From Patescibacteria group bacterium (GTDB lineage Bacteria; Patescibacteriota; Minisyncoccia; Phycocordibacterales; Phycocordibacteraceae): a stretch of 64,000 nt of DNA. The notes below the pieces were generated by a model, which was not told the DNA's origin, ran no database searches, and saw only the letters and a list, made by a program, of their open reading frames with translations. Location: the NCBI GenBank assembly GCA_019752595.1, contig JAIELV010000001.1, forward strand, positions 618,394-682,393. The letters are read 5' to 3'. Of this stretch, positions 44,649 through 63,995 are shown in pieces (position 1 is the stretch's first letter; every line of letters starts with the position of its first letter). The translations under genes and the position numbers were made by a program.

Positions 44649-45429
44649 AAAGCGTGGGGCAAAGTTGGGGCAGCACTTCCTCACGAATGCGGGGATTGCT
44701 CGCATCGTTGCCGAAAGTTCTGGCGCAGGGGTAGGGGTTCGCGTCTATGAAATCGGCCCTGGGAAAGGGATGCTGACGAAAGAGCTCTTAGCGCTCGGTG
44801 CAGTAGTGACCGCCGTGGAGAAAGACCCCGAGATGGCTGAAATCCTTTGTGCAGAGTTTGTAGACGAGATACGAAAGAAAAAACTCATTGTTATAGAAGG
44901 TGACGCGCGCGACTACACTCCCGATACGGTATTCCCAAAAGGTGAGTACATTATTGCTGCAAACATTCCGTACTACATTACGGGGGAATTAATCAGAACA
45001 GCGCTCACCTCAAAAAACCAACCGAAAAGTATGGCTCTTTTGATTCAGAAAGAAGTCGCTGAAAGAATTGCTCGTTCAAAAAAAGAATCCCTGCTCTCGC
45101 TTTCCGTAAAAGCGTATGGCACTCCGAAATACGTAAAGACAGTATCTGCGGGGAGTTTTAATCCGCCTCCTGCAGTTGATTCAGCAGTGCTTTCAATTGG
45201 AAATATTTCTCGCGCACATTTTGCTACTGTTTCTGAAGACGTTTTCTTTCGTGTTATCAAAGCGGGTTTTGCACAGAAACGAAAAACACTTGGTGGTAAT
45301 TTGAAAAAAACATTCGGCGTAAAGGCGCTCGAGGCACTTGCGTATGCAGGAATCCCCGAAAAAGAGCGCGCAGAAAATGTGCCGCTCGCTTTGTGGTTAC
45401 GCGTGGCTGAAAAAATGCGCCAAACTTAG
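44629..45429 (+). CDS. rsmA: 16S rRNA (adenine1518/1519-N6)-dimethyltransferase
   Basis: 266 aa with the KsgA SAM-binding motif VYEIGPGKG and NIPY. Confidence 0.9.
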   Translation: MKKQLTRKRGAKLGQHFLTNAGIARIVAESSGAGVGVRVYEIGPGKGMLTKELLALGAVVTAVEKDPEMAEILCAEFVDEIRKKKLIVIEGDARDYTPDTVFPKGEYIIAANIPYYITGELIRTALTSKNQPKSMALLIQKEVAERIARSKKESLLSLSVKAYGTPKYVKTVSAGSFNPPPAVDSAVLSIGNISRAHFATVSEDVFFRVIKAGFAQKRKTLGGNLKKTFGVKALEALAYAGIPEKERAENVPLALWLRVAEKMRQT

Positions 45430-50114: not shown

Positions 50115-53100
50115 ATGGCAATGCCTGCTACTTCGTGGCGAAATTTTTTCGTTTTCCTTCTTAATGGGATTATCGGGCTTTCAATCGTTTTCTCGATAGC
50201 AATACCTTTCGCTGAAGCAGCTCCTGTAGCTGACACGTCACGTGCCCGTCCCGCGTTTGAGAGCATGAGCGGGATAAGCGTTTTAAACCCGGCGTATACA
50301 CTCCTTCGTGGTATCCCCGATGGTTGGCGTTGCGGTCAGTTCTCCCAAAGTGAATCAGGGTGTTACGACACTACCAACCCAACAGGTTCTTGGGTCTATT
50401 TAACTTGTAGAAGTGAAACTGTTACGCCGCGGGCGGATATGCCTGATATTTCATACACGACATCCGAGTGCAGCATGTGGCGCGGAAGCGGTTCACAAAG
50501 TATCGATCGGGAGACTCTTACACAATTAGATTCGCCAGGCTCAATGTCTTGGGAAGTGCCAACAATTAACAGTGATGGGACTGTAGAGGTGGAGGAAGGG
50601 AGGGCTGGCGCTGCTGATATTGTCGCGTCGATTTTTGCAGGGGCAGGGAACTGGATTAGCGGAATTTTGATTGAGGCGGTCGCGTTGATTATCTGGTTCT
50701 TCAGCGAGATTTTAGTGTGGATGTTAAACGGTCTTCTCGCACTTGTCGCTTTGTTTTTCGACTACGTCGTCAGTGAGTTTGTTATAGAAATGGGTAAATA
50801 CATCACCGCTGATTCTTCGGGGGCGGTGCGCGACGCGTGGATCATTATTCGCGACCTTGCAAACATCGGCATTATTGCAGGCATGGTGGCAACCGCAATC
50901 GGCACCATTGTGGGGGTCGGGAACTACAGCATCAGTAAAACGCTGGCGCGCCTTATTCTTGCCGCACTACTAGTTAACTTCAGCTATTTTTTCGCTGGAG
51001 CAATTATCGACTTCTCAAACTTCACTGCAAAAGCCGCGTACGAAGCGGTGATTAAAAAAGCGGGGTGCGAAACGGACAGTTCCTGTGGGATTGCAAGCAG
51101 GACTGGCAAATTAATCAATTTCACAGGAATAAATGAAAGGGTGCAGGAAATTGCCGTGGGGGACGACGAAATGACGGCGCAAGGCGCTGAGCGAAGCGGT
51201 GAAACACGAGTCGGGAGGGAAACCTACACAACCGACAACGCCTTCATTCCTTCCCGTCAAGCAACATTCAATGTGATGTTGATTATCTTCATTCTCGTCA
51301 CCATGTTTGTGTTCTTGTCGGCAATCAGCCTCTTGATTGCACGTTTTGTTGCGCTCATATTCCTCCTCATTACGTCACCTATAGGTATTGCTGGATGGTC
51401 GGTCCCTCTTTTGAAAAGCTATTCGGACGAGTGGTGGAAAGCCTTGTCGAGCCAAGCAATGTTCGCGCCAGTCTATTTCCTTCTTGCAGGAATTTCTTTG
51501 AACATGTTGGATGCGTTTGCGGGACAGCTGAACTCAGACCCCGTTGGTCTCTCCTTGACGAGCTTTGCTTTGACTCGTTCGCTTGAGGGGATGATCCCCA
51601 TCATTGCGGTGTTTACTGTTGCAATCGGTTTCATGTGGGCCGCGCTTTCAACCGCAAAGAAAATGGCAGCAGCGAGCGAGCGATTCAAAGAGCTGTACGA
51701 TGGCGTACAAAAATACCTCACCAAGCCTGGCACTTACTTAGGTGGTATGGTCCTTCGTGACACAGTTGGTCGCGCAGCGGACTACGCTCGACTAAAACTC
51801 CCCGGTTTCACTAACCGAGTTTCAGAATGGAGCAAAGGAAAAGGAATGACACAATCCATCGGCAGAGCTGTAGGAAAATACACCGGCCTTGGTGGGTTTG
51901 TAAAAATGGGAGGACGGGCACTCGACCGTGCAGCCCAAAAGGGGTTTGAGAAAATTGCTGACCAAAAATTCTTCGGGGCTGAAGGTTATAAAAAGCTATA
52001 CGACGAAAAAGAAAAACGTAAAATCGACTTGGTGGCAAAAAAAGAGGCGCTGGAAAACGAGGATGATTTCGACGGACGAAAGGCGAAAAGAGAGTTGTTG
52101 GAAAAAGAGCGCAAGTTGAAAGAGGAGCAAAAGAGAACGTCCGCTGCTATTGCAGAGCTTGAAAAAGTCAGCGGTCGCACACCCGCACAAGACGCAAGCC
52201 TTGCTTCGTTGAGGGAGAAAAGGGAAAAGGAGAGAGCGGAACTTGCTGAAATAAATAAATTTAAAGAGAACCGCAAACGACACCCAAAGGATGGTGTTAC
52301 AAAAGAACATGGCGAACTGGTTGAAAGCTCGAGGCTGAATCAGCTGCACGCAGATAGACAAAATGTTATTGGTCAGGGCAAACTTTCCCCCGAAGAGGTC
52401 AAGCGACTTGAGGAGAAGGAAAAAAACAAAACGCTAACCGCGGCGGAAGGCAATCGTCTCCGTCTACACAGAGAGCATGGGGGTGATACCGCTAAACTTG
52501 ACGCTGAAATCGCGGAGGAGGAAGAATTTGAACAACAAAAAGATAAATACGGATGGGGCGGCGCTCAGGGGAGAATCCGTCGCGGAAAGGCAAAACAAGA
52601 TCGCGCGGTAGCGGCAGGAGAACGCATAGAAAATTTCAACGAGAGGGCGCACGCATCGGGGCTGGAAAAAATTGCTGCTGCTGCTGCGAAAGCGGCATTT
52701 AGTGAGCCTGATTTCAGTGCATGGCAAGCTTTGGAGCGGCAAGCGGCAGCAAACCCAGGCGCTTTCAGCGAGACTGACCCTGGTAAAAAGGGGGCTTTGC
52801 AGGTACGCCTTGAAAAATTCCGAGAACAAGCGGAAAACGCGTCCCGCATGAGCCCCGGGGATGAGAAGTCTTACCTGGAAGCGCTACAAACCCCCCCGTC
52901 TGAACGCACTCCCGATCAGGTTGCACTCGTTACCGACCCCAACAGAAAGCTAACAAGTGCGGAAGCCAAAGCCTCGGCCTATTATCGTGAACAAAAAACC
53001 GCAATCACGGAGGATACGAACACAAAATTGGATGCGGACATTAGGAGGCGAACGGCTGGAACGCTTACGGATAAAAAGAGGCTCGCCGAGATGGAAGTTC

Positions 53101-54797
53101 TTGAAAACCGCAGACGAGTCGCAGGTGTTGTTTCAAATGATGGTAAAACCATTATAAAAAAGGGGGACGGCTTCAGCGAGGGTGCAGTAGAAAATTTTCA
53201 TGCATTTAGAATCAGACAAGAATCGCGTAATTCGGCGGTGCAAAGAAAGTTGCAAGAAAAATTTAACGATGAAACTGGCCAGGTTGAATTCGAACTTGAA
53301 GATGATTACGGATACAAATACAGACTCGAGACGGGTGATGCGACACTGCAATTGCGTAACGCAATGGGCGATGCACGCACACTCGTCGGAAAGCTGGGTG
53401 TCGACTACATCAAGGGAGAATACCGTAAAGACCCGAAGAGTATTCTCAAGTACGCAACGGCCCTGAACGACGAAGACTGGGCAAAAATAGCCTCAGACCA
53501 TAGCATTAACGAAGAGATACGGAATGAAATGCAAGTAACCAGAATAAGACGATTCACCGACGGTTTTATTAAGCTCCAACAGGACATTGTTGACGGTAAA
53601 GTTGCGTGGGGCAGCGATGAATTTAATCGCCGCAAAAACGACCTGTTTAACCAGCAGACCAAATACATCCCGAATAGCGAGATGCTCGCAGCGCTCCAAA
53701 CAAACGCGGTCATCGGCGAACTTCATAATAAAAAGACCGGTGCTACGATGCATGTTCGTATTAAAGATCTGAACACAGACACTGGAGAAGAGGGGGTCGG
53801 GAACTTGCGCAGGCTATTCTGGCACAGTACATCTTCAACGATGTTTGCGGACGCGAAGAAAACAAACGTCTTCGGACGTGAACTCAGCGCTGAAATGGCT
53901 CGCGATAAACGCGGCGGAGAGGACGGCACTGACCGAATGCGAGACATTGATCATATGATGTACGACATGATGGGTCTCAGTGACGACAAAAACTACATGC
54001 AACAGACCGCCGGCAAGGTTCAAATGTATGCTAAGGCTCGCGCCGACAAAGCAACAAAAAACATACTCGTAGAAGCCGAGAATAAAATTAACGCGTACAA
54101 TGATGGAGAAAGTACGCAAACCACAAACGACTACATTGCAACGCAGCGCGCACGGCGCCTAGCGCAACTGAATGTGGATGCACAAGCAGGCAGGGGGATA
54201 TTCCAAGACGTGCTACAAACTGCGGTAGCCACTAACAATTTAAAAAGCGTCAGAGCTTCGATCGCACAGAAGTTAAACATCCCCGCCGCCGACATCCCAG
54301 AGCAAGATGTAATCTCTTACGCAAAACTTGAAGCTGTTCGTAAGGTGAAAGCGGAAGTGATGAGTGATCCGCGTTCCGACGAGCAAATAATATCGGAAAT
54401 GGGGCTAGACGAAGGGCAGAAATTAGTTGACCAGAGACTCTTCTTTGAGATGCAAGAGGAGAACAAAATTAATGCGAGAAACCGAGCAAAAGGATGGACT
54501 GAAGATGAAGCAGCAGGAGCGTGGAATGAGAGAAGCATGCACTCGCCCATCATCGCTGAAACCATTCAGCAATCCCAAATTCCTGCACTGCTGTCTGGTA
54601 AAGACCCTGTGGATGCCGAGAGGTTTTGGGAGAGTTACTATTTGACGAGAGGCTCTGAAGAAATTACCGCGGCTCGCAATAGCCAGGCGATACAATCCGT
54701 GATCGTATACCCTACAAAATCGCAATTGCGTGCTATTAACATCAGACGTCTTGCTAATAATCAAGACATTTTGGTCGGCCTCCCCACCAGTGATTAA
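50115..54797 (+). CDS. Giant VirB6/TrbL-like polytopic membrane protein with a ~1000-aa charged coiled-coil extension
   Basis: 1560 aa. The N-terminal ~550 aa has a signal/TM helix plus at least 6 hydrophobic helices in a VirB6/TrbL-like arrangement. The rest is a Glu/Lys/Arg-rich predicted coiled coil and low-complexity sequence. Confidence 0.55.
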   Translation: MAMPATSWRNFFVFLLNGIIGLSIVFSIAIPFAEAAPVADTSRARPAFESMSGISVLNPAYTLLRGIPDGWRCGQFSQSESGCYDTTNPTGSWVYLTCRSETVTPRADMPDISYTTSECSMWRGSGSQSIDRETLTQLDSPGSMSWEVPTINSDGTVEVEEGRAGAADIVASIFAGAGNWISGILIEAVALIIWFFSEILVWMLNGLLALVALFFDYVVSEFVIEMGKYITADSSGAVRDAWIIIRDLANIGIIAGMVATAIGTIVGVGNYSISKTLARLILAALLVNFSYFFAGAIIDFSNFTAKAAYEAVIKKAGCETDSSCGIASRTGKLINFTGINERVQEIAVGDDEMTAQGAERSGETRVGRETYTTDNAFIPSRQATFNVMLIIFILVTMFVFLSAISLLIARFVALIFLLITSPIGIAGWSVPLLKSYSDEWWKALSSQAMFAPVYFLLAGISLNMLDAFAGQLNSDPVGLSLTSFALTRSLEGMIPIIAVFTVAIGFMWAALSTAKKMAAASERFKELYDGVQKYLTKPGTYLGGMVLRDTVGRAADYARLKLPGFTNRVSEWSKGKGMTQSIGRAVGKYTGLGGFVKMGGRALDRAAQKGFEKIADQKFFGAEGYKKLYDEKEKRKIDLVAKKEALENEDDFDGRKAKRELLEKERKLKEEQKRTSAAIAELEKVSGRTPAQDASLASLREKREKERAELAEINKFKENRKRHPKDGVTKEHGELVESSRLNQLHADRQNVIGQGKLSPEEVKRLEEKEKNKTLTAAEGNRLRLHREHGGDTAKLDAEIAEEEEFEQQKDKYGWGGAQGRIRRGKAKQDRAVAAGERIENFNERAHASGLEKIAAAAAKAAFSEPDFSAWQALERQAAANPGAFSETDPGKKGALQVRLEKFREQAENASRMSPGDEKSYLEALQTPPSERTPDQVALVTDPNRKLTSAEAKASAYYREQKTAITEDTNTKLDADIRRRTAGTLTDKKRLAEMEVLENRRRVAGVVSNDGKTIIKKGDGFSEGAVENFHAFRIRQESRNSAVQRKLQEKFNDETGQVEFELEDDYGYKYRLETGDATLQLRNAMGDARTLVGKLGVDYIKGEYRKDPKSILKYATALNDEDWAKIASDHSINEEIRNEMQVTRIRRFTDGFIKLQQDIVDGKVAWGSDEFNRRKNDLFNQQTKYIPNSEMLAALQTNAVIGELHNKKTGATMHVRIKDLNTDTGEEGVGNLRRLFWHSTSSTMFADAKKTNVFGRELSAEMARDKRGGEDGTDRMRDIDHMMYDMMGLSDDKNYMQQTAGKVQMYAKARADKATKNILVEAENKINAYNDGESTQTTNDYIATQRARRLAQLNVDAQAGRGIFQDVLQTAVATNNLKSVRASIAQKLNIPAADIPEQDVISYAKLEAVRKVKAEVMSDPRSDEQIISEMGLDEGQKLVDQRLFFEMQEENKINARNRAKGWTEDEAAGAWNERSMHSPIIAETIQQSQIPALLSGKDPVDAERFWESYYLTRGSEEITAARNSQAIQSVIVYPTKSQLRAINIRRLANNQDILVGLPTSD

Positions 54798-54814
54798 CCC
54801 CCTGAAACTAAGGC

Positions 54815-55804
54815 ATGAAAACCCCCACCAAAGAAGAGCAGTACGGAGCGCTTATAAAGGCCCCAAAACCTTTGAGGGATTTTATAGTGTCACCAACACT
54901 TCTACAGATTTACGGTGGAATAGAGAGGAAGCATAAATTTACACCTGCACAAATGCTTACTGTCTCTCAATTAGCAAATCTTACTCTTCTGGGATTTGAA
55001 AGCGAGACCGCTCTCGAAACAAACATCCACCAAATATTACCCGATTTGTCTCACACTACAACGGTTGAACTCGTTGCTGATATACATACTCGTGTTTTCA
55101 AAGAGGCGCAACGGCGGGTTGAAGAAAGTATCTTAGAACCGAGTGCCTACAGCAAAGCACTCGAGGAATCCGCAGCCCCAGCTGACCCTGAGTATACGAG
55201 AATAAACAACCTTGACGAAGATACCCCTGAATGGAGGGAGATGATAGGCAAGAAAATCGAAGAACAAAAGGCCGAACGAATGGCATTCCAAAAACAATAC
55301 GAAGAAAAAGTGCGAGAGCAAGCATCCGCGAGCGAAAACGCGGATGTCGAAGGGGTGGACATTGCTGATCTTGACGAAGATAATTGGCTTAAATCAAGGT
55401 ATGAACTAGAGTTAGAAGCGATTGAATCAGCGTTTCAAGAAAAAGTTGCTGTCCTTGAAAATGGAGAGGGGGCCCCGGCCGCAAGAACCATCTCTGCAGT
55501 TCAAGGGGGGCGGGATGGCGCTTACGAAAAGCCTGATAAATTGACTTTAAATGTTGTACAAATAACCCAGCCCGTCCCTGCCGAAGCCCCTGCGTCCTCA
55601 GTGTCTATTGCGCAACAAAAACTCAGCGTTCCGACAGCAGAGCAGAGCTCAACATCACAAGTTGAATCTGTCCTTGGACAACCAGGTATTTCCTCAGTCG
55701 AATTGCCAGTACCGTTGGACTCCACGACACAGAAAGCGAATGTAACTCCAATTCAGAAAAGACCCGAAAAAAGCAACGACCCGTACCGGGAATCCGTCGA
55801 CTAG
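54815..55804 (+). CDS. Acidic hypothetical protein, paralogous N-domain with the next gene
   Basis: 329 aa. Its N-terminal ~100 aa aligns with ORF 55823..56164. Confidence 0.45.
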   Translation: MKTPTKEEQYGALIKAPKPLRDFIVSPTLLQIYGGIERKHKFTPAQMLTVSQLANLTLLGFESETALETNIHQILPDLSHTTTVELVADIHTRVFKEAQRRVEESILEPSAYSKALEESAAPADPEYTRINNLDEDTPEWREMIGKKIEEQKAERMAFQKQYEEKVREQASASENADVEGVDIADLDEDNWLKSRYELELEAIESAFQEKVAVLENGEGAPAARTISAVQGGRDGAYEKPDKLTLNVVQITQPVPAEAPASSVSIAQQKLSVPTAEQSSTSQVESVLGQPGISSVELPVPLDSTTQKANVTPIQKRPEKSNDPYRESVD

Positions 55805-55822
55805 ACGGGGTAAAATACATAT

Positions 55823-56164
55823 ATGTTTTCATTTACACCCGAAGAAATAGCGGGCGCGAAATCAAGCGCCCCGAAAGTAATCACTGATTTTCTAGCATCG
55901 GCTGATTTCAAAAAAGAAATCTTCGCAATCAGTAAACAGCACACACTGAATTTACAGGGGATTGCAGAACTAAGCGACATTGTCACTTATATGCTCCTTG
56001 GGCTCATCCCGCAACATGAATTTGCAGGATACATACATTCTTCCCATATGCACCTCAGTCCTGAGGGCCAACGCATGCTTTTAAGCGAAGTTGATGCGAA
56101 GATTTTTAGCGAAATAAAAAGAAGACTCCAATCAGATACCACACCGAGAACTGAACAAGAGTAG
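55823..56164 (+). CDS. Hypothetical protein, paralogous to the N-domain of the preceding gene
   Basis: 113 aa. Confidence 0.45.
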   Translation: MFSFTPEEIAGAKSSAPKVITDFLASADFKKEIFAISKQHTLNLQGIAELSDIVTYMLLGLIPQHEFAGYIHSSHMHLSPEGQRMLLSEVDAKIFSEIKRRLQSDTTPRTEQE

Positions 56165-56229
56165 TGCTGGGCTTTTGCATCTCATACACCCTCGCCTACC
56201 GCAGTGAATTTTTAGTTTACAATTACAGT

Positions 56230-56661
56230 ATGCAATTTCAGGTTCCTCAGTTTATTGAGGTTGAAGATAAAATATTCGGCCCATTAACGGCAACCCAGTT
56301 TATTTACCTCGTTGGTGGAGGGGGGTTTGCCGTTGCAATGTGGCTCTTGTTACCACTATGGGCTGCGGTACTTATTGGAGGGCCCGTAGCAGGGCTCGGG
56401 GTGGCTCTTGCGTTTTACAAGGTAAACGACCGCCCGTTCATTCAAGTTATCGAAGCGGCGTTTCAGTATATTTTGAAGTCAAAGCTCTATATTTGGGAAC
56501 ATAAAAATGCCGAACCCTCGCCAGAGCAGGCGGCGGAACGCGACAACGACCCAGCAAAATTTGTGCCCGCAGCAACGGGTGACCGACTGAAAGATTTGGC
56601 ATGGAGTTTGGATGTGCAGGAAAAAACTCAGCGAGAAGGAATAGAACTCCCAAGAATATAA
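56230..56661 (+). CDS. PrgI/VirB3-like small membrane protein
   Basis: From MQFQVPQFIEVEDKIFGPLTATQFIYLVGGGG... there are two TM helices and a PrgI-type LT..Q motif. It lies immediately upstream of VirB4. Confidence 0.55.
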   Translation: MQFQVPQFIEVEDKIFGPLTATQFIYLVGGGGFAVAMWLLLPLWAAVLIGGPVAGLGVALAFYKVNDRPFIQVIEAAFQYILKSKLYIWEHKNAEPSPEQAAERDNDPAKFVPAATGDRLKDLAWSLDVQEKTQREGIELPRI

Positions 56662-56717
56662 GGGGCACGGAACCGAGAATTCACTCTGTGAAGTAAAACA
56701 TACCGTACACTACATAT

Positions 56718-57383
56718 ATGCCCCCCCAGCAAAAAAAGAAGAGCGCTGCCGCACAAGAATTTGTACCCGTAAAAGAGGTGCGTGGTGGCGTCATGATAAT
56801 GAAAGACGGCACACTCGTTGGGGCGCTACTGGCGTCTTCGGTTAACTTTGCCCTCAAATCAGAAGACGAACAGACAGCAATCATTGCACAGTTTCAAAAC
56901 TTCCTTAACTCCCTCGATTTTTCAGTTCAGCTTTTCATGCAGTCGCGAAAGCTCGACATACGCCCATACGTAGCCCTTCTTGATGAGCGCCTGAAAGCAC
57001 AAACAGAGGAGCTCATGAAAATACAAGTCCGAGAATACATAGAATTCGTGAAAACGTTTGTCGAGCAGGCAACCATCATGTCGAAGCGTTTTTTTGTAAT
57101 TGTTCCTTATTCGCCACCAGCACTAAACATACAGAAGGAGCTCCAGAGTAGGGTTTTTGGAAGCCCCGATGTTGAAATCGGAGCTAAGAAGGGGAGTTTT
57201 GAGGAACACCGCACACAACTTGAGCAACGTATGTCCATCGTCGCAGGGGGGCTTGCAGGGTGCGGGGTGCGCACCGCGCAACTAGGCACCGAAGAAATAA
57301 TTGAACTTCTCTACAAGGAATTTAACCCAGGGGAACTTGAAAAACCAATAACCCTGCAACAAAACGCGATACCGCAAAAATAA
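56718..57383 (+). CDS. VirB4-like ATPase, N-terminal domain as a separate ORF
   Basis: 221 aa. The segment VPVKEVRGGVMIMKDGTLVGALLASSVNFALKSEDEQTAIIAQFQNFLNSLDFSVQLF matches the conserved N-terminal region of Gram-positive VirB4 (PrgJ/TcpF). Its stop is 2 nt before the next ATG. Confidence 0.6.
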   Translation: MPPQQKKKSAAAQEFVPVKEVRGGVMIMKDGTLVGALLASSVNFALKSEDEQTAIIAQFQNFLNSLDFSVQLFMQSRKLDIRPYVALLDERLKAQTEELMKIQVREYIEFVKTFVEQATIMSKRFFVIVPYSPPALNIQKELQSRVFGSPDVEIGAKKGSFEEHRTQLEQRMSIVAGGLAGCGVRTAQLGTEEIIELLYKEFNPGELEKPITLQQNAIPQK

Positions 57384-57385
57384 CT

Positions 57386-59197
57386 ATGGATTTATTTGAC
57401 TTAATTTCAGGGAAAAAGCCAGAAGAGAAGCAGAAACTCACTCCGTTTTTGCCGAAAGACATTTACGAATCTGCGAAACTTGATTTCGCAGACATCATTG
57501 CGCCTTCAGCGCTCCAAATTACCCCGCGTGAAATGAACTTGGGAGACAAACTCGTGCGCACGTTCTACGTTATTTCGTATCCACGCTATCTTGCAGGAAG
57601 TTGGTTTTCGCCAATTATCAATCTCGACAAAGTGTTCGACATATCAGTATTTATTCACCCGATAGATACTGCCCAAATGCTGAGGCAATTCCAAAAGAGA
57701 GTTGCGGAGGTACAAAGTCAGATTATGAGCCGACAGGAGAAAGGCTTGGTGCGTGATCCAGTGTTGGATACCGCATACCAAGACATTGAAGGGCTGCGCG
57801 ACCAACTACAGCAAGCGCAGGAGCGCATTTTCGACGTGGGGCTTTACATTTCTATATATGGCGATAACCAGGAAGACTTAAACAAAACTGAATCAGAGGT
57901 TCGCTCGATGCTTGACTCAAAGCTCGTGTACGTAAAGCCAGCTCTTTTTCAACAAGAACAGGCATTTATGAGCATTGCACCTTTGGGGAAAGACGTGCTT
58001 TCGATTAACTCGAAGATGAATTCTTCTCCTCTCTCTTCTATTTTCCCATTCGTGTCTTTCGACCTCACCTCTGATAGGGGGATTCTCTACGGCATCAACC
58101 GCCACAATTCCTCTCTTATTTTGTTTGACCGATTTTCTCTTGAAAACTACAACTCCGTGGTATTCGCAAAGTCGGGCTCGGGTAAGTCATACGCAACCAA
58201 ACTCGAAATACTACGAACGCTAATGTTCGACACAGAAGTTATTGTTATCGACCCTGAAAGCGAATACGAATATCTGGCGAACGCCGTCGGCGGGAGATTT
58301 TTCAATATCTCACTCTCATCAGACAACCACATCAATCCGTTTGACCTCCCAACCCCACGTGAAGACGAGTCTCCATCTGACGTCTTGCGTTCAAACATCA
58401 TTAACCTTGTCGGGCTCTTCCGCATCATGCTCGGGAGCCTCACTCCTGAGGAAGACGCGATCGTAGACCGCGCGATTACTGAAACGTACGCCCTCAAAGA
58501 CATCACGGGCGAAACTGATTTCAAAAGCATGGAACCGCCGCTACTTTCTGACTTTGAGCTTGTGCTCGCGGGCATGGAGGGGTCGGAATCACTGGTTCAA
58601 CGCCTGAGTAAATACACCAAAGGTACGTGGGCGGGGTTTATTAACCGACCCACAAACGTCGACATCAACAAGAAGTTCGTTGCGTTCTCAGTTCGAAACA
58701 TGGAAGACGAGTTGAAGCCCGTGGCGATGTACATTGTGACGCACTTCATTTGGAATGCCGTCCGAAAAGAGCTCAAAAAGCGTCTGCTGGTTATTGACGA
58801 GGCGTGGTGGATGATGAAATCCGAAGATACTGCGTCATTCTTATATTCAATGGCAAAACGAGGTCGTAAATACTACCTGGGGCTTGCAACTATTACCCAA
58901 GACGTCGAGGACTTCTTGAAGAGCCCCTACGGTGGGCCGATGCTCACCAACTCATCAATTCAGATACTTTTAAAGCAGTCGCCGACCTCAATTGATGCCG
59001 TGCAAAAGACATTCAACCTAACTGACGAAGAAAAATATCTTCTACTAGAATCTGACGTCGGGGAGGGGATTTTCTTTGCAGGATTGAAGCACGTTTCCAT
59101 AAAAATTATCGCCTCATACACTGAAGACCAGATTATTACTTCGGACCCCTCGCAACTGTTGGCAATCGCGCGCGAACGAAAAGCGGCCCAAGAATAA
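57386..59197 (+). CDS. VirB4/TrbE/CagE-like conjugative ATPase, C-terminal NTPase domain
   Basis: 603 aa with Walker A FAKSGSGKSY, Walker B LLVIDEAWW and ATITQDVEDF. Confidence 0.8.
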   Translation: MDLFDLISGKKPEEKQKLTPFLPKDIYESAKLDFADIIAPSALQITPREMNLGDKLVRTFYVISYPRYLAGSWFSPIINLDKVFDISVFIHPIDTAQMLRQFQKRVAEVQSQIMSRQEKGLVRDPVLDTAYQDIEGLRDQLQQAQERIFDVGLYISIYGDNQEDLNKTESEVRSMLDSKLVYVKPALFQQEQAFMSIAPLGKDVLSINSKMNSSPLSSIFPFVSFDLTSDRGILYGINRHNSSLILFDRFSLENYNSVVFAKSGSGKSYATKLEILRTLMFDTEVIVIDPESEYEYLANAVGGRFFNISLSSDNHINPFDLPTPREDESPSDVLRSNIINLVGLFRIMLGSLTPEEDAIVDRAITETYALKDITGETDFKSMEPPLLSDFELVLAGMEGSESLVQRLSKYTKGTWAGFINRPTNVDINKKFVAFSVRNMEDELKPVAMYIVTHFIWNAVRKELKKRLLVIDEAWWMMKSEDTASFLYSMAKRGRKYYLGLATITQDVEDFLKSPYGGPMLTNSSIQILLKQSPTSIDAVQKTFNLTDEEKYLLLESDVGEGIFFAGLKHVSIKIIASYTEDQIITSDPSQLLAIARERKAAQE

Positions 59198-59266
59198 CGG
59201 CAGGCTTGCTTGCTGGATAAAAGTGCAGGTGTCCGCACGTGGGCTATATACTGTACAGAGAGCTCT

Positions 59267-60229
59267 ATGGCGAAAATTTTCGCATTACTTCTACTTTGCA
59301 TCGTGCCCGCTTCAGCGTTTGGTGCGGTGGTGCCTACAATTTCTTTGCGCCCCGTGATTAGCGCAAACCCAAGTTACCAAACTCCAAACGCTTCAGTGGT
59401 CCTTACTGCAATTGCCAAGGTCCCAAAAGGTGAAGTGACGTACACGTGGACCGTGGACGACGTGGAAATTGCCCGAGGTATCGATATAGACAAAATTACT
59501 CTCACTGCGGGGGCAGGGGGCAGTACAAAAGTAGTGCGTGTATTTTTGGTAGACGCGCAGGGGGCTGAGGGTGAAGCGCTGTACCTCATTCGCCCAGGCA
59601 GTGTGGATTTGGTGTGGGAAGGGAACACGTATATACCACCCTTGTACGCTGGGAAGGCCCTCCCCACGGGAGATTCGATGATACAAGTCCAAGCGCTCCC
59701 GCATATAGAAATAGGAAGTGGTCGCGTACCAAAAAATTCTCTTGTGTACACGTGGGAAGTTGAGGGACAGAAGCTTGAGGCGGCATCGGGCTTTGGGAAA
59801 TCCGTACTTCGCATTAAACCAACAAAACTTAAATACCAGACACGAGTTAGTGTTACTGCCTCAACTCCCGATGGCACTATAGGCGCGCGGGCATCGGCAA
59901 CCATACCACTCTATAATCCTGTCGTAGTGATTTATGAAGAAAAGCCCCTTTCGGGAACGTGGTACACACAAGCAACGCCAGCTATGACGACACTCTCTGC
60001 GGACGAAGTAGCATTTCGAGCGATCCCGTATTTTGTTCTTGACCCGAAGAGTGTTTCTTTCGTCTGGACTCTTTCAGGAGAACCGTTTGAAATTGATACC
60101 CCTGACCGTTCAATCGCAGTGTTCAGAAAAACGGGCGAGGGGGCAGGTGAATACCCTGTCGGTGTTACGATAGAAAAGCGCGACAGCCTCTTTGAGCGTG
60201 CTTCTTCAAGATTTGTTCTTTCATTCTAA
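59267..60229 (+). CDS. Secreted beta-rich (Ig-like repeat) protein (hypothetical)
   Basis: The signal peptide is MAKIFALLLLCIVPASAFG, and the internal halves are similar. Confidence 0.5.
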   Translation: MAKIFALLLLCIVPASAFGAVVPTISLRPVISANPSYQTPNASVVLTAIAKVPKGEVTYTWTVDDVEIARGIDIDKITLTAGAGGSTKVVRVFLVDAQGAEGEALYLIRPGSVDLVWEGNTYIPPLYAGKALPTGDSMIQVQALPHIEIGSGRVPKNSLVYTWEVEGQKLEAASGFGKSVLRIKPTKLKYQTRVSVTASTPDGTIGARASATIPLYNPVVVIYEEKPLSGTWYTQATPAMTTLSADEVAFRAIPYFVLDPKSVSFVWTLSGEPFEIDTPDRSIAVFRKTGEGAGEYPVGVTIEKRDSLFERASSRFVLSF

Positions 60230-60244
60230 TCTTTTTTCTTTCTC

Positions 60245-61132
60245 ATGAAAAAATTTAAAGCTCTCTGTGTCATCTCCTTGGTTGTTCTTACCTTTGTAAC
60301 TTCATTTGCTTTTGTTGAGGCATCACAATTTCAACCTATCGTCCCCATTCCTGGCGTAACTTCAGAGCAAGGAATTACGTTGACCTTCGCACAGTACGTA
60401 AATCAGATATTCAAGCTGGTGATTTCACTAAGCGCAATACTTGCGGTACTCGTAATTATTTACGGAGGATTTGAGTACATGACTTCCTCCGCAGGCATCA
60501 GCAAGAAAAACGGTATGGAGCGTATCCAGGGCGCAGTGACGGGGCTTTTCCTTCTTTTGTCTGTCACACTCATCTTGCAAATCATCAACCCGTGTATTTT
60601 GGAAATAACGGTTCTTTCGGGGACAACGTCCGAGCAATGCTCGCGCCAAGTGGCCGCAACCCAGGCGACAGGACAAGGTGTGGGCCAGGGGACGGGCCAA
60701 GGCACGGGACAGGGAACAGGACAAGGAGCGGGTCAGACTACTACGGAGCGCCCTTGTCAGGTTTCGGCCAGAGCGAGTACCTGCCCAAGTGGGGCCCCCA
60801 CCGTCGCAAGATGCGCGGCGGGCACTGTATACACTGATGTCCCTGCAACGGGGGGCTGTGTGGCCCCTGCAACAGGAATCGTGCATATCTGTGAAAATGC
60901 TTCTTGTGTGAGAGCCCCTGACCGAGACGGGGCGTGGCGTGTGGTAGCTTCTGAGACAACGCAGTGCCAGTCGAGTGGGGACCCAATACTCCCTGTGGCG
61001 CACTGTTGCACTATTCAGAACCCAACGTGGGCTCAATTTCTTGAAGAAACCTGCTCGGTGCGCACAGGAACCACCCAGTGTAGTGGGACCAAACCAAACA
61101 CGGTGTATATCTGTGGGGGACAATCAAGATAA
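60245..61132 (+). CDS. Candidate VirB2/TrbC-like pilin with a Cys-rich C-terminal domain
   Basis: 295 aa with a signal peptide and two hydrophobic helices (IFKLVISLSAILAVLVIIYGG and GAVTGLFLLLSVTLILQII). A (GQGT)n tandem repeat at 60665-60730 precedes a domain with at least 10 Cys. Confidence 0.45.
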   Translation: MKKFKALCVISLVVLTFVTSFAFVEASQFQPIVPIPGVTSEQGITLTFAQYVNQIFKLVISLSAILAVLVIIYGGFEYMTSSAGISKKNGMERIQGAVTGLFLLLSVTLILQIINPCILEITVLSGTTSEQCSRQVAATQATGQGVGQGTGQGTGQGTGQGAGQTTTERPCQVSARASTCPSGAPTVARCAAGTVYTDVPATGGCVAPATGIVHICENASCVRAPDRDGAWRVVASETTQCQSSGDPILPVAHCCTIQNPTWAQFLEETCSVRTGTTQCSGTKPNTVYICGGQSR

Positions 61133-61134
61133 GT

Positions 61135-62319
61135 ATGAAAATAAACAGAGGGGCAATCATCTTTATCGTCGTTCTCGGGGGCATCGCGCTCATTATTGTG
61201 GGGGTCATTGCGTTTTCTAATTTACTGAAACAGCCTTCGACAGGAACGGGGGGCGGGGTAGCTGATCTTTTCTCCTCACTGTTTCCGTTTGGTCAATCTG
61301 CTTCGCGCCCAAGTGAAAATGGAGCAGAGACAAACACCCCTGAAGATCTGGGTCCTGTGCCAACACTCAGAGAAGTGAGCCGCGGACCAGTAGCAGGATT
61401 TCGAGTATCAAATGCTGGGATACTGTACGTTGAGCAAAACACGGGTCATATTTTTCAAACACCGACTGAAAGTCTGGCTGTAACACGCCGAGCAAATACC
61501 ACATTCCCTGGCCTAGAGCGCGCGGTGTGGCTTTCAGACTCCGCGGTAATTTTCCAAAATATAGACACGGAAAAAACTGAAAATTTTCTTGTTTCTTTTG
61601 CAACCACTTCGGTGGACCAGCAAGTGAGTAGCAGACCACTCTCGAGTTTTAATTCGGTTGTGGCAGAGCCAAATCTTCAACTCATGGTGCTAACGCAGAG
61701 GGCGGGAGGTACCAGGATTTCAGTTTCAAGCTACGACGAAACACGTAAAGACACTGTATTTACTTCCCCGATGCTTTCGTGGCGCGCATTCCCTGCAGGA
61801 GATGACGTACTCGTTGAAACTACACCATCTGATGGTCTTGGTTTTTTGTACAGAATTCTTGGGGGCGGGGAGCTTGAGAAAATCGTGGGAAGTGTGCCAG
61901 GGCTCATGGCCGTCCCGCGTGCTGACGGGGCATATATTGCGGTCAGTTCGGTAAGCGGCACATCGGCTCGGCTCTCTTTTATAGACAAGGACGGAATCTT
62001 TGCGGGGGCATCGCCCATAGCCACATTTGCTGAGAAATGCGGGTGGTTCCCTGGAAACGAGCCTGCAGTTGCGTGCGGGGTACCAGAATCTGTAGCAGGC
62101 GCTTCCATAGATTCTTGGTATATGGGACTCCAAACATTTAGTGACACCGTGTGGATAATCCGCCCATCTAGTGAGACAGGTACGTTTATAAAAAATCTAG
62201 AGACGGAAGCGGGACGCCCGATTGATGTTATTGACCCGCACGTGAGCCCCGACGGGCGGTACTTCATTTTCAAAAACAAAAACGACCTTTCGTTGTGGTC
62301 GTTGGATTTAACTCGATAG
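61135..62319 (+). CDS. Membrane-anchored extracellular protein (hypothetical)
   Basis: 394 aa with an N-terminal TM helix; the remainder is probably beta-rich. Confidence 0.5.
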   Translation: MKINRGAIIFIVVLGGIALIIVGVIAFSNLLKQPSTGTGGGVADLFSSLFPFGQSASRPSENGAETNTPEDLGPVPTLREVSRGPVAGFRVSNAGILYVEQNTGHIFQTPTESLAVTRRANTTFPGLERAVWLSDSAVIFQNIDTEKTENFLVSFATTSVDQQVSSRPLSSFNSVVAEPNLQLMVLTQRAGGTRISVSSYDETRKDTVFTSPMLSWRAFPAGDDVLVETTPSDGLGFLYRILGGGELEKIVGSVPGLMAVPRADGAYIAVSSVSGTSARLSFIDKDGIFAGASPIATFAEKCGWFPGNEPAVACGVPESVAGASIDSWYMGLQTFSDTVWIIRPSSETGTFIKNLETEAGRPIDVIDPHVSPDGRYFIFKNKNDLSLWSLDLTR

Positions 62320-62335: not shown

Positions 62336-62830
62336 CTACGTGGTTTCAGTGGGGGCGGGCTTGGGAGCGCCTGTTTCGGAGTAGCGAACGACAATGTGAC
62401 GCATAGCGCCCTCACCAACTGATTCGGTGTACACATTCGGCGACCCTTGAAGTGCTGCGTGAATAATCATGCGGTCATACCCACTCATCGGGCTCATTTC
62501 AATATCATACTTAAATGTACGTGCACGTTCCGCAAGCATATGGGCTTGGTTCTCAAGCGCCTTTATGTGCCTCATGTGGTAACCATTTACATCAACAACA
62601 AATCGGAATGTGTCGTCGGTACCCTTCGTTTCATCTTCATACACTTTTTTCATGAGCATATTCAGCGCCGAGAGCGTGTCCCCGCGGGCACCGATAAGGG
62701 CGCCTGAATCTTTGGTTTGGATGGTGAAAATCGTGTGACCTGCAATGTCTGTCGTTTCTATGTCGTCAACAGAAACCCCCATTTTTTGGGTTATTTCTTT
62801 AAGCGTTTGTGTTATCTGATCTTTTTTCAT
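62336..62830 (-). CDS. jag: Jag/KhpB-like R3H-domain RNA-binding protein
   Basis: KH and R3H domains with RMIIHAAL. The start MKKDQITQ is used. It is downstream of yidC. Confidence 0.8.
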   Translation of the reverse strand: MKKDQITQTLKEITQKMGVSVDDIETTDIAGHTIFTIQTKDSGALIGARGDTLSALNMLMKKVYEDETKGTDDTFRFVVDVNGYHMRHIKALENQAHMLAERARTFKYDIEMSPMSGYDRMIIHAALQGSPNVYTESVGEGAMRHIVVRYSETGAPKPAPTETT

Positions 62831-63548
62831 TGTGCATTTTGCGGACAAACAGCTCCTGGCCGATTGAGAAAGTATTGCTCACCACGAAGTAAAGTGCAAT
62901 AGAGGCCGAGGTAGCGTAGGCAACAATACCCAGAAGAACGGGGAAAACATACTGCATTTGCAAACTCATACTTCTCTGCAAATCTTCGGAAAAAGACGGC
63001 TCAGAACCTGCCTTTTTTTCAGCTACGGGGGGCATCATGAGCTTCGCAAAGACAAACTGTGTGACTGCGACAATGAGCGCAAGGAGGATGCTCTTTTCTG
63101 AAAGATCCAAAAGCCCAAGGAAGATGAGGGTGGTTTCTGTTGGTACAGATATGAACGAGTAGAGGATAGCGGGGTCAAACGATACAACCTTGCTTTCATT
63201 CTGAAGAACCAAGTAAAGCCCGATAATAACGGGGAGTTGAATAAGGATTAGAAAAAAGCTCGCAAAAGGATTAATTTTGTGTTCTTTAAAGAGCGCCATC
63301 ATTTTTTTAGCGAGCTCTTCTTTGTTTTCTTTATACTTTTCCCTCATCTCCTTTAAGAGAGGGTCGATTTTTCGCATGGTCATCTGCGTTTTTATTGCAG
63401 TCCATGAAATAGGGAAGAGGGCGAGGCGCACCAAAATAGTTACCCCGACTATTGCAAGGCCTATGTCTCCACCAGGAATGAGATTAACGAAAAAAGCGAG
63501 CGCGTTGTAAATCGGCTCGTACACCACTACGTTGAACAAATCTGCCAT
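62799..63548 (-). CDS. yidC: Membrane protein insertase YidC (short form)
   Basis: 249 aa with the conserved YidC/Oxa1 TM core. Confidence 0.9.
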   Translation of the reverse strand: MADLFNVVVYEPIYNALAFFVNLIPGGDIGLAIVGVTILVRLALFPISWTAIKTQMTMRKIDPLLKEMREKYKENKEELAKKMMALFKEHKINPFASFFLILIQLPVIIGLYLVLQNESKVVSFDPAILYSFISVPTETTLIFLGLLDLSEKSILLALIVAVTQFVFAKLMMPPVAEKKAGSEPSFSEDLQRSMSLQMQYVFPVLLGIVAYATSASIALYFVVSNTFSIGQELFVRKMHNEKRSDNTNA

Positions 63549-63668
63549 CGGGGCATTGTACCCCGTCAGTAGAACTTGGCGTACTGTTTTTTATAGCAAT
63601 TATGGCGTAATGTATTCTTTTTGTGGGGAGAATTACTCATACCAATACAGATGGACGTAACGGGGACT

Positions 63669-63995
63669 CTAGTATTCGCCAGGAGTTTTTTTTGAAAACT
63701 TTTTTATAAAATCTTCTTTTATGCTCGTGACGCTTATTTTTAAGATTTCACGATTTGGGTAAAAGACATACAACGCACCAGGCACAAGCTCTTTTAGTGT
63801 TTTGAGAGCTTCATACCCCTTTCTTTTTCCTTTATGTCGAAATACCGCACTCTGTATGGTTTTTTTTGAAATCACGACCGTCGCGCGAAATACGGGAGAG
63901 GGGTGTGCACGCAATGTCCCAAAAGAAAAGACGTGGGATGCCCCGCGTCCTTTAGGAAACTGCGCCCGAGATACACGCTCTCGGCGAGGAAGCAT
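63669..63995 (-). CDS. rnpA: Ribonuclease P protein component
   Basis: 108 aa with the RnpA basic N-terminus and the RNR-like motif. The classic rnpA-yidC-jag order places this near the origin. Confidence 0.85.
   Translation of the reverse strand: MLPRRERVSRAQFPKGRGASHVFSFGTLRAHPSPVFRATVVISKKTIQSAVFRHKGKRKGYEALKTLKELVPGALYVFYPNREILKISVTSIKEDFIKKFSKKTPGEY

What the first reader, a model, noticed from the sequence alone, without database searches (positions are those of the whole stretch)
56718..59197. VirB4 split into two adjacent ORFs
The conserved VirB4 N-terminal domain (56718-57383) stops 2 nt before the ATG of the NTPase domain ORF (57386-59197). There is no frameshift; the frames differ and a clean TAA separates them. 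This is either a genuine two-polypeptide VirB4 or a very recent stop. A split VirB4 is rare and would be mechanistically interesting.
Basis: seen in the sequence. Interest (0 to 1): 0.6.

Follow-up and report, generated by a model that had tools for sequence, protein, structure and literature searches.

The report
Conserved two-gene VirB4 (TrsD plus ATPase)
The two adjacent genes are real, but this is the normal, already published layout of the type IV secretion motor in Patescibacteria and some Gram-positive plasmids: a small TrsD-like protein carries the first ~200 residues of VirB4 and a second gene carries the rest. It is not a recent break or a rarity.

Summary
ORF1 (56718-57383, 221 aa) ends in TAA two bases before the ATG of ORF2 (57386-59197, 603 aa), which lies in another frame.

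ORF1 is a TrsD/TraC-like protein equivalent to the first ~200 residues of VirB4. ORF2 is the rest of VirB4, with intact Walker A and B motifs. The evidence:
- Family profiles match the two ORFs colinearly.
- A fused 797-aa relative covers both ORFs.
- The only strong fold matches of the ORF1 model are R388 TrwK/VirB4.

The split is old and under selection:
- All 78 related genomes that hold both genes are split.
- Their gaps run from -4 to +565 nt, in all three relative frames.
- Six carry another gene between the two.
- Relatives of 82-88% identity from independent samples are also split. Their synonymous sites are saturated while replacement differences stay low.

This rules out a recent stop, a sequencing error or programmed frameshifting.

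The layout VirB3-like, TrsD, VirB4 matches staphylococcal plasmid pGO1 (trsC-trsD-trsE), with the break at the same point. A 2025 paper already reports TrsD next to virB4 as the most abundant T4SS component in Patescibacteria.

Verdict: already known, low interest. One small addition is that a Colwellbacteria-like lineage carries the fused form.

The parts
56164..56661 (+). PrgI / VirB3-like small protein (165 aa), immediately upstream of the TrsD-like gene
   Evidence: Pfam PF12666 PrgI, E 1.1e-09, above the curated cut-off. The same gene precedes the TrsD-like gene in L085, L087, L088, L082 and the Geobacillus plasmid.
56718..57383 (+). ORF1: TrsD-like / Pfam 'TraC-like' (PF26593) protein, 221 aa. 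It is equivalent to the first ~200 residues of a full-length VirB4. No transmembrane segment.
57384..57385 (+). 2-nt spacer (CT) between the TAA of ORF1 and the ATG of ORF2
   Evidence: The spacer is variable in relatives, from -4 to +565 nt.
57386..59197 (+). ORF2: VirB4-like ATPase (603 aa) lacking the first ~180 profile positions. It holds the remaining N-terminal subdomain plus the P-loop C-terminal domain.
   Evidence: conju_CD1110 scores 373.5 bits (cut-off 325), with ORF2 24-570 matching profile positions 178-732. Pfam P-loop_TraG, AAA_10 and DUF87 hit. PDB 4ag5 VirB4 C-terminal domain, E 1e-42. BLASTP to pGO1 TrsE gives E 2e-40, ORF2 16-574 against TrsE 24-617.
58166..58189 (+). Walker A motif AKSGSGKS (ORF2 residues 261-268)
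   Evidence: Read from the translation and from the alignment.
58784..58810 (+). Walker B region LLVIDEAWW (ORF2 residues 467-475)
60245..61132 (+). VirB2-like T4SS pilin-domain protein in the same operon
   Evidence: Pfam PF18895 T4SS_pilin, E 3.7e-07, above the cut-off.
50115..56164 (+). Three upstream co-oriented, tightly spaced ORFs of the cluster (1560, 329 and 113 aa) without recognisable families
   Evidence: ORFs of similar size sit at the same position in L085, L087 and L088; their homology was not tested.
59210..62319 (+). Downstream co-oriented cluster ORFs (339 aa, the pilin-like 295 aa, 394 aa)
   Evidence: spacings 12, 15 and 2 nt.

Best explanation
This is the standard chromosomal type IV secretion locus of a Patescibacteria (CPR) bacterium, lying next to jag-yidC-rnpA near the replication origin. 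Its VirB4 motor is encoded by two cistrons. ORF1 is a TrsD-like (Pfam TraC-like) protein that carries the first ~200 residues of the VirB4 N-terminal domain. ORF2 carries the second N-terminal subdomain and the Walker A/B ATPase domain.

Shown here:
- The two ORFs are colinear with, and complementary to, full-length VirB4.
- The split is conserved across deep divergence under purifying selection.
- The break point is the same as between TrsD and TrsE of pGO1.

Inferred:
- The two proteins are made from one operon transcript, often by termination-reinitiation coupling, since most gaps are 1-8 nt.
- They assemble non-covalently into a VirB4-like oligomer at the membrane.
- The TrsD-like part does what the extreme N-terminus of VirB4 does in the R388 structure, namely contact VirB3/PrgI and the inner-membrane platform.
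For: Homology and complementarity:
- ORF1 13-116 matches CD1110-type VirB4 profile positions 2-105, and ORF2 24-570 matches positions 178-732.
- The fused P0217 (797 aa) aligns with ORF1 at residues 4-214 (41% identity) and with ORF2 at 232-797 (56%).
- P0217 matches TIGR00929 VirB4_CagE in one stretch, 17-750 against 18-725, and also matches TrsD at residues 9-123.

Conservation of the split:
- 78 of 78 loci are split, with gaps from -4 to 565 nt, relative frames 17/34/27 and all three stop codons.
- Six loci have a ~120-aa gene inserted between the two.
- The closest relatives from independent samples are split with gaps of 4, 2 and 1 nt.
- pS is 0.72-0.88 against pN 0.08-0.14 for ORF1 and 0.03-0.08 for ORF2.
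- ORF1 has 83 invariant columns among 29 homologues.

Same architecture elsewhere:
- pGO1 has trsC (VirB3-like), trsD (227 aa) and trsE (672 aa).
- The ORF1-family profile (alignment A2) matches pGO1 TrsD with hhalign E 2e-5. ORF2 residue 16 aligns with TrsE residue 24.
- Geobacillus pGspE55-1 has PrgI, a TrsD-like gene and a DUF87 ATPase.

Literature: TrsD is described as remotely homologous to the VirB4 N-terminus. It is the most abundant T4SS component in Patescibacteria, usually lies next to virB4, and is essential in Ca. Southlakia epibionticum (PMC12102498).

Context: ksgA, jag, yidC and rnpA flank the cluster, as that paper describes.
Against: - Physical association of ORF1 and ORF2 products was not tested. 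No multimer model could be run.
- Both AF2 models have only moderate confidence (mean pLDDT 64 and 65), and the fold matches have high rmsd.
- ORF1 scores far below the NCBIfam TrsD cut-off (28.8 against 200 bits). The local Pfam copy returned nothing for it.
- PDB sequence and profile searches with ORF1 found nothing.
- PMC12102498 notes that TrsD homologues are not linked to virB4 in Gracilibacteria, so an independent role cannot be excluded.
Confidence: 0.88

Rival explanations
1. A recent nonsense or frameshift mutation, or a sequencing or assembly error, has broken a normally single virB4 gene (a pseudogene or artefact).
For: The two ORFs are adjacent, in different frames and only 2 nt apart. 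Fused ~790-aa versions exist in another Patescibacteria lineage. Assembly damage of such genes does occur: L081 carries an internal deletion in a fused gene.
Against: All 78 related loci and four close relatives from independent samples are split, with different junction sequences, spacings and frames. ORF2 starts at a conserved Met followed by a conserved N-terminal peptide. Both ORFs are under strong purifying selection, with synonymous sites saturated. Walker motifs are intact.
Confidence: 0.01
2. A programmed -1 ribosomal frameshift on the A-run (CAA AAA TAA) joins ORF1 to ORF2, so that a full-length fused VirB4 is made as well as, or instead of, the two separate proteins.
For: ORF2 is in the -1 frame, and the last sense codons of ORF1 form C AAA AAT. 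A -1 slip there would read AAA ATA ACT ATG straight into ORF2. L087 has the same junction.
Against: The A-run and the -1 relation are not conserved. L085/L086 (CTA TAA CCAT ATG) and L088 (TTA TAA T ATG) are in the +1 relation without a slippery run. Across 78 loci the frames are 0, +1 and +2 in 17, 34 and 27 cases, and gaps reach 565 nt with inserted genes. No canonical X XXY YYZ heptamer is present.
Confidence: 0.03
3. ORF1 is descended from the VirB4 N-terminus but now acts on its own, for example as an adaptor, chaperone or regulator of the T4SS, rather than as an integral, stoichiometric piece of the VirB4 motor.
Against: ORF2 lacks exactly the region ORF1 supplies: the parts are complementary, not redundant. 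A fused form exists at 41% and 56% identity. Adjacency is tight and conserved, with gaps of 8 nt or less in 63 of 78 loci. The break point matches that of pGO1.
Confidence: 0.08

Closest known systems
TrsD-TrsE (TraD-TraE) of the staphylococcal conjugative plasmid pGO1, the pGO1 subclass of MPF-FATA type IV secretion systems
   Same: The gene order is the same: VirB3-like (trsC/PrgI), then a ~220-aa TrsD, then a short VirB4. TrsD is colinear with the ORF1 family over 174 columns (hhalign E 2e-5). TrsE starts at the same point as ORF2, residue 24 against residue 16 (E 2e-40). So the break point is the same.
   Different: Sequence identity is very low (14% for TrsD, 24% for TrsE). pGO1 is a conjugative plasmid with a relaxase and a coupling protein. 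The window's system is chromosomal and origin-proximal. It has a VirB2-like pilin gene and no relaxase or coupling protein among the ORFs I scanned. ORF1 does not reach the NCBIfam TrsD cut-off.
Patescibacteria T4SS as described by Quinonero-Coronel et al. 2025 (PMC12102498) and Wang et al. 2023 (PMC10633639)
   Same: The locus has TrsD next to virB4, PrgI/VirB3 and VirB2-like pilins, and lies near dnaA/rnpA/ksgA. The window comes from a 'Patescibacteria group bacterium'.
   Different: Nothing substantive differs; this locus is one more instance. In the passages I searched, the paper does not state that ORF2-type VirB4 lacks the TrsD-equivalent region. It also does not mention that some lineages (Ca. 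Colwellbacteria) have the fused form (one search found no mention).
Full-length VirB4 / TraC / TrwK ATPases (TIGR00929; R388 TrwK structures 7o41, 7o42, 8rtb)
   Same: Together ORF1 and ORF2 cover the whole profile, as the fused relative P0217 shows (17-750 against 18-725). The fold matches support this.
   Different: There are two polypeptides instead of one. Sequence similarity to proteobacterial VirB4 is weak (ORF2 against TrwK E 2e-5; ORF1 has no sequence hit).
Fused TraC-like+VirB4 proteins of Ca. Colwellbacteria and other Parcubacteria (P0217 family, ~790 aa)
   Same: They are 41% and 56% identical to ORF1 and ORF2. They sit in the same genomic setting: PrgI upstream, and jag-yidC-rnpA-dnaA nearby.
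   Different: They are a single polypeptide. A ~15-residue linker replaces the ORF1 tail and the first 35 residues of ORF2, including the conserved N-terminal MG[IL]FD/MDLFD peptide of the split forms.

Membership tests
VirB4/TraC/CagE T4SS ATPase (ORF2) | C-terminal P-loop NTPase domain with Walker A and Walker B motifs | tested here: met
   AKSGSGKS at residues 261-268 and LLVIDEAWW at 467-475. PF19044 hits at E 4e-26. PDB 4ag5 VirB4 C-terminal domain hits at E 1e-42.
VirB4/TraC/CagE T4SS ATPase (ORF2) | Score above a curated family cut-off | tested here: met
   NF045971 conju_CD1110 scores 373.5 bits against a cut-off of 325. The score for TIGR00929 is below its cut-off (120 against 643 bits).
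VirB4/TraC/CagE T4SS ATPase (ORF2) | Complete N-terminal domain on the same polypeptide | tested here: not met
   ORF2 begins at profile position 178 of 752. The missing part is encoded by ORF1.
VirB4/TraC/CagE T4SS ATPase (ORF2) | Encoded with other T4SS components (VirB3/PrgI and others) | tested here: met
   PrgI lies at 56164-56661 and a T4SS_pilin gene at 60245-61132.
TrsD/TraD family, Pfam PF26593 TraC-like (ORF1) | Stand-alone protein of ~200-230 aa encoded directly upstream of a VirB4-like ATPase and downstream of a VirB3-like gene | tested here: met
   The order is the same in pGO1 and in the Geobacillus plasmid.
TrsD/TraD family, Pfam PF26593 TraC-like (ORF1) | Sequence homology to TrsD | tested here: inconclusive
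   NF041427 gives E 1e-6 and 28.8 bits, far below the cut-off of 200. hhalign of the family profile against pGO1 TrsD gives E 2e-5, probability 77%, over 174 colinear columns. PF26593 is listed for the identical database protein, but the local Pfam scan returned nothing. This is a remote homologue, not a member by the NCBIfam threshold.
TrsD/TraD family, Pfam PF26593 TraC-like (ORF1) | [quoted passage not shown] | tested here: met
   sequence; fold.
TrsD/TraD family, Pfam PF26593 TraC-like (ORF1) | Physical association with the VirB4 ATPase or VirB3 | not testable with these tools
   No multimer prediction or experiment was available.
Programmed -1 frameshift site | Conserved slippery heptamer and a conserved frame relation across orthologues | tested here: not met

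The most novel reading that the evidence does not exclude
The fused or split state of VirB4 may have changed within Patescibacteria, and the split may be functionally meaningful.

In a rough neighbour-joining tree of the TrsD module, the fused Colwellbacteria-type proteins sit inside the diversity of stand-alone forms. That would mean a secondary re-fusion.

Split forms carry a conserved N-terminal peptide on the ATPase (MG[IL]FD/MDLFD) that the fused forms lack. It could be a docking element that replaces the covalent link. Separate polypeptides might then allow regulated or sub-stoichiometric assembly of the motor's membrane-proximal tier.
Probability: 0.2. Interest if true: 0.4.

Novelty: already known. 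Interest (0 to 1): 0.15.

Why it matters
This mainly corrects an annotation. The 221-aa 'hypothetical protein' (K2P56_04025) should be read as the detached N-terminal module of VirB4 (TrsD-like). The 603-aa 'short' VirB4 is complete only together with it.

The T4SS is essential for epibiotic growth in the one Patescibacteria species tested. Anyone modelling or purifying its motor therefore needs both polypeptides. Natural fused relatives also exist, which gives a convenient single-chain construct for structural work and a natural control for asking what the split is for. None of this changes current understanding of T4SS.

Tried and rejected
- PDB sequence search with ORF1 alone, and with a 60-sequence profile, found nothing even at E<=10. 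Only fold comparison linked ORF1 to TrwK.
- The local Pfam scan of ORF1 gave no family, although PF26593 is listed for the identical protein in the precomputed annotation.
- dN/dS could not be computed because synonymous sites are saturated in all but one comparison (pS 0.72-0.88). I report pN and pS instead.
- P0289, a 600-aa protein 88% identical to the fused P0217, looked like a recent fission. tblastn showed it is a fused gene with an internal deletion of residues 90-192 and a frame change in that assembly, so it is not evidence for a natural split.
- The main text of Guglielmini et al. 2014 (PMC4027160) does not mention TrsD by name. The statement about homology between TrsD and the VirB4 N-terminus is therefore cited from PMC12102498.
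- The pNP40 paper (PMC8194271) held nothing on TrsD/TraD.
- The first neighbour-joining script timed out. The faster version is only indicative. The Myxococcus 'outgroup' nested inside the ingroup, and one 224-aa protein (P0216) fell among the fused ones. The direction of change (fission or re-fusion) is unresolved.
- Programmed frameshifting, a recent stop and sequencing error were considered and rejected (see the rival explanations).

Full report
**Observation.** The ORF table lists 56718..57383 (+, 221 aa, ATG) and 57386..59197 (+, 603 aa, ATG). The junction reads ...ATA CCG CAA AAA TAA CT ATG GAT.... So there is a clean TAA, a 2-nt spacer, and ORF2 lies in the -1 frame relative to ORF1. 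ORF2's frame is open for only 15 codons upstream of its ATG. The 2-nt gap is not special in this operon. Successive co-oriented genes from 50115 to 62319 are separated by 17, 18, -1, 56, 2, 12, 15 and 2 nt.

**What the two ORFs are.**
- ORF2 is a VirB4-type ATPase. It hits Pfam P-loop_TraG, AAA_10 and DUF87.
- It scores 373.5 bits on NCBIfam conju_CD1110 (cut-off 325), with ORF2 24-570 on profile positions 178-732 of 752.
- It matches the solved VirB4 C-terminal domain 4ag5 at E 1e-42 and TrwK at E 2e-5.
- Walker A (AKSGSGKS, residues 261-268) and Walker B (LLVIDEAWW, 467-475) are intact.
- ORF1 has no hit in the local Pfam copy.
- In NCBIfam it matches the start of the same VirB4 profile (ORF1 13-116 on positions 2-105). 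It also matches VirB4_plasma and, at E 1e-6, the TrsD/TraD family.
- The two ORFs are therefore colinear with, and complementary to, one full-length Gram-positive-type VirB4.

**Direct proof from a fused relative.** An exhaustive HMMER search with ORF1 found 2,370 clusters (50% identity) at E<=1e-3.
- Of the best 150, 149 are 142-443 aa and one, P0217, is 797 aa.
- P0217 aligns with ORF1 over residues 4-214 (41% identity) and with ORF2 over 232-797 (56% identity).
- P0217 matches the canonical VirB4_CagE model TIGR00929 in one stretch (17-750 on 18-725). It also matches TrsD at residues 9-123.
- At least 115 further fused clusters of ~790 aa exist. Those that carry a source name are called Ca. 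Colwellbacteria, Parcubacteria group or Patescibacteria group, and they carry PF26593 ('TraC-like') plus the ATPase domains.

**Structure.**
- In Foldseek the 14 best matches are all TrwK/VirB4 chains, with E down to 5e-4.
- These models are only moderately confident, so I use them as support and not as proof.

**Is the split recent, an error, or bridged by frameshifting? No.**
- ORF1 is 100% identical to NCBI K2P56_04025 of a 'Patescibacteria group bacterium' on an 831-kb contig. It has 7,289 homologues at 90% clustering, and the best 120 are all 192-253 aa.
- A scan of one genome per species found 588 relatives. Of the 80 best loci, 78 hold both genes and all 78 are split.
- The distance from the ORF1-type stop to the ORF2-type ATG runs from -4 to +565 nt. 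The relative frame is 0, +1 or +2 in 17, 34 and 27 loci. The stops are TAA 57, TAG 15 and TGA 6.
- In six loci the spacer holds an extra gene of about 120 aa, so the two genes are plainly separate cistrons.
- The nearest relatives (88, 83 and 82% identity) come from four independent assemblies (Logan, NCBI, JGI). They are also split, with gaps of 4, 2 and 1 nt and different junction sequences. Only L087 shares the A-run.
- Against these relatives synonymous sites are saturated (pS 0.72-0.88). Replacement differences are few: pN 0.08-0.14 for ORF1 and 0.03-0.08 for ORF2.
- Both genes have therefore been kept by selection over a long time, with the stop in place.

**Comparison with what is known.**
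- pGO1 of Staphylococcus aureus has trsC (VirB3-like), trsD (227 aa) and trsE (672 aa, VirB4-like) in the same order.
- A profile of ORF1 relatives aligns with pGO1 TrsD over 174 colinear columns (E 2e-5).
- ORF2 aligns with TrsE from residue 16 against residue 24 (E 2e-40). The break is at the same point.
- tblastn of ORF1 finds relatives on 525 plasmid records, mostly Bacillus and Lactiplantibacillus. One is Geobacillus pGspE55-1 with PrgI, a TrsD-like gene and a DUF87 ATPase. A Myxococcus plasmid has the fused form.
- Quinonero-Coronel et al. [quoted passage not shown] They found 2,272 homologues in 2,221 assemblies, 1,664 of them associated with virB4. They add that it is essential in Ca. 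Southlakia epibionticum, and that the T4SS often lies near dnaA, rnpA and ksgA.
- Wang et al. 2023 describe that essential T4SS.
- The window fits this description. ksgA (44629-45429) lies upstream, and jag (62336-62848), yidC (62799-63548) and rnpA (63669-63995) lie downstream on the minus strand.

**Mechanism.**
- Shown: ORF1 and ORF2 are complementary pieces of VirB4, co-oriented and adjacent after a PrgI/VirB3-like gene, and both are under selection.
- Inferred, from the gap distribution (63 of 78 loci have gaps of 8 nt or less): translation is often coupled.
- Inferred, from the fused relatives and the R388 structures: the two products associate non-covalently to rebuild the VirB4 N-terminal domain at the membrane face of the motor. 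In R388 that is where VirB4 meets VirB3; this last point rests on general knowledge of the structure and was not tested here.
- Neither protein has a transmembrane segment.
- The ATPase of split forms begins with a conserved peptide (MG[IL]FD; MDLFD here) that the fused forms lack. It may serve as a docking element, but this is speculation.

**Direction of change.** A rough neighbour-joining tree of the TrsD module placed the fused proteins as a tight group inside the stand-alone forms. In 60 resamplings they were never sister to 90% or more of them. The rooting is unreliable, so whether the fused forms are retained or re-fused remains open.

**Verdict.** The 'genuine two-polypeptide VirB4' reading is right. 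The 'recent stop' and 'rare' readings are wrong. The arrangement is already described for Patescibacteria and for the pGO1 class, so novelty is 'already known' and interest is low.

Noticed in passing
L007 4649-5098, L032 4649-5059, L057 4628-5074, L067 4655-5112 (also L034 4628-5123 and L061 1628-2192); L087 2558-2938: In six related genomes a 411-565 nt insert sits between the TrsD-like stop and the virB4 ATG. In four of them it encodes a ~120-140 aa protein with the motif pattern of four-helix-bundle '23S rRNA intervening sequence' / bAvd-like proteins (W-QKS...LTSQIRRAAISIPSNIAEG). L087 has such a gene (PF05635/PF22296) between prgI and the TrsD-like gene. These small genes seem to land repeatedly in intergenic junctions of the T4SS operon. 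The L034 insert begins with a perfect 40-nt palindrome that overlaps the TrsD stop.
   Followed up: partly
window 57386-57490 (ORF2 residues 1-35): The N-terminal peptide of the ATPase (MDLFD here, MG[IL]FD in most relatives) is strongly conserved in split loci. It is absent from the fused Colwellbacteria-type proteins, where a ~15-residue linker replaces it and the ORF1 tail.
   Followed up: partly
L081 1282-3470: P0289, a 600-aa 'short VirB4' 88% identical to the fused P0217, is a fused gene with an internal deletion of residues ~90-192 and a frame change in that MAG. It is probably an assembly error or a pseudogene, not a natural split.
   Followed up: yes
window 62336-63995 (minus strand) and 42720-45429: The T4SS cluster is flanked by jag (R3H/KH), yidC and rnpA downstream and by uvrD-like and ksgA genes upstream. 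This is an origin-proximal chromosomal position, as reported for Patescibacteria. dnaA itself probably lies just beyond the window's end.
   Followed up: partly
window 50115-54797: A 1560-aa ORF with no Pfam or NCBIfam family heads the T4SS cluster. Very large ORFs (more than 1,000 aa) occupy the same position in L085, L087 and L088. Its function is unknown; it may be a surface or adhesin-like component.
   Followed up: no
window 56718-57383: The local Pfam-A copy returns no family for ORF1. The precomputed annotation of the identical database protein lists PF26593.2 (TraC-like). The two Pfam copies seem to be different releases.
   Followed up: no
one search hits H1 and H17 (Haloprofundus and Halomicrobium plasmids; also Natrinema): TrsD-like stand-alone proteins also turn up on haloarchaeal plasmids (27.8% identity over 97% of ORF1 in Haloprofundus). 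The detached VirB4 N-terminal module therefore reaches beyond Bacteria.
   Followed up: no
(for example P0142 443 aa, P0165 432 aa, P0210 417 aa); L083 3881-4837: A minority of TrsD-like proteins carry C-terminal extensions, reaching 300-440 aa. The Geobacillus plasmid protein is 318 aa. The nature of the extension was not examined.
   Followed up: no
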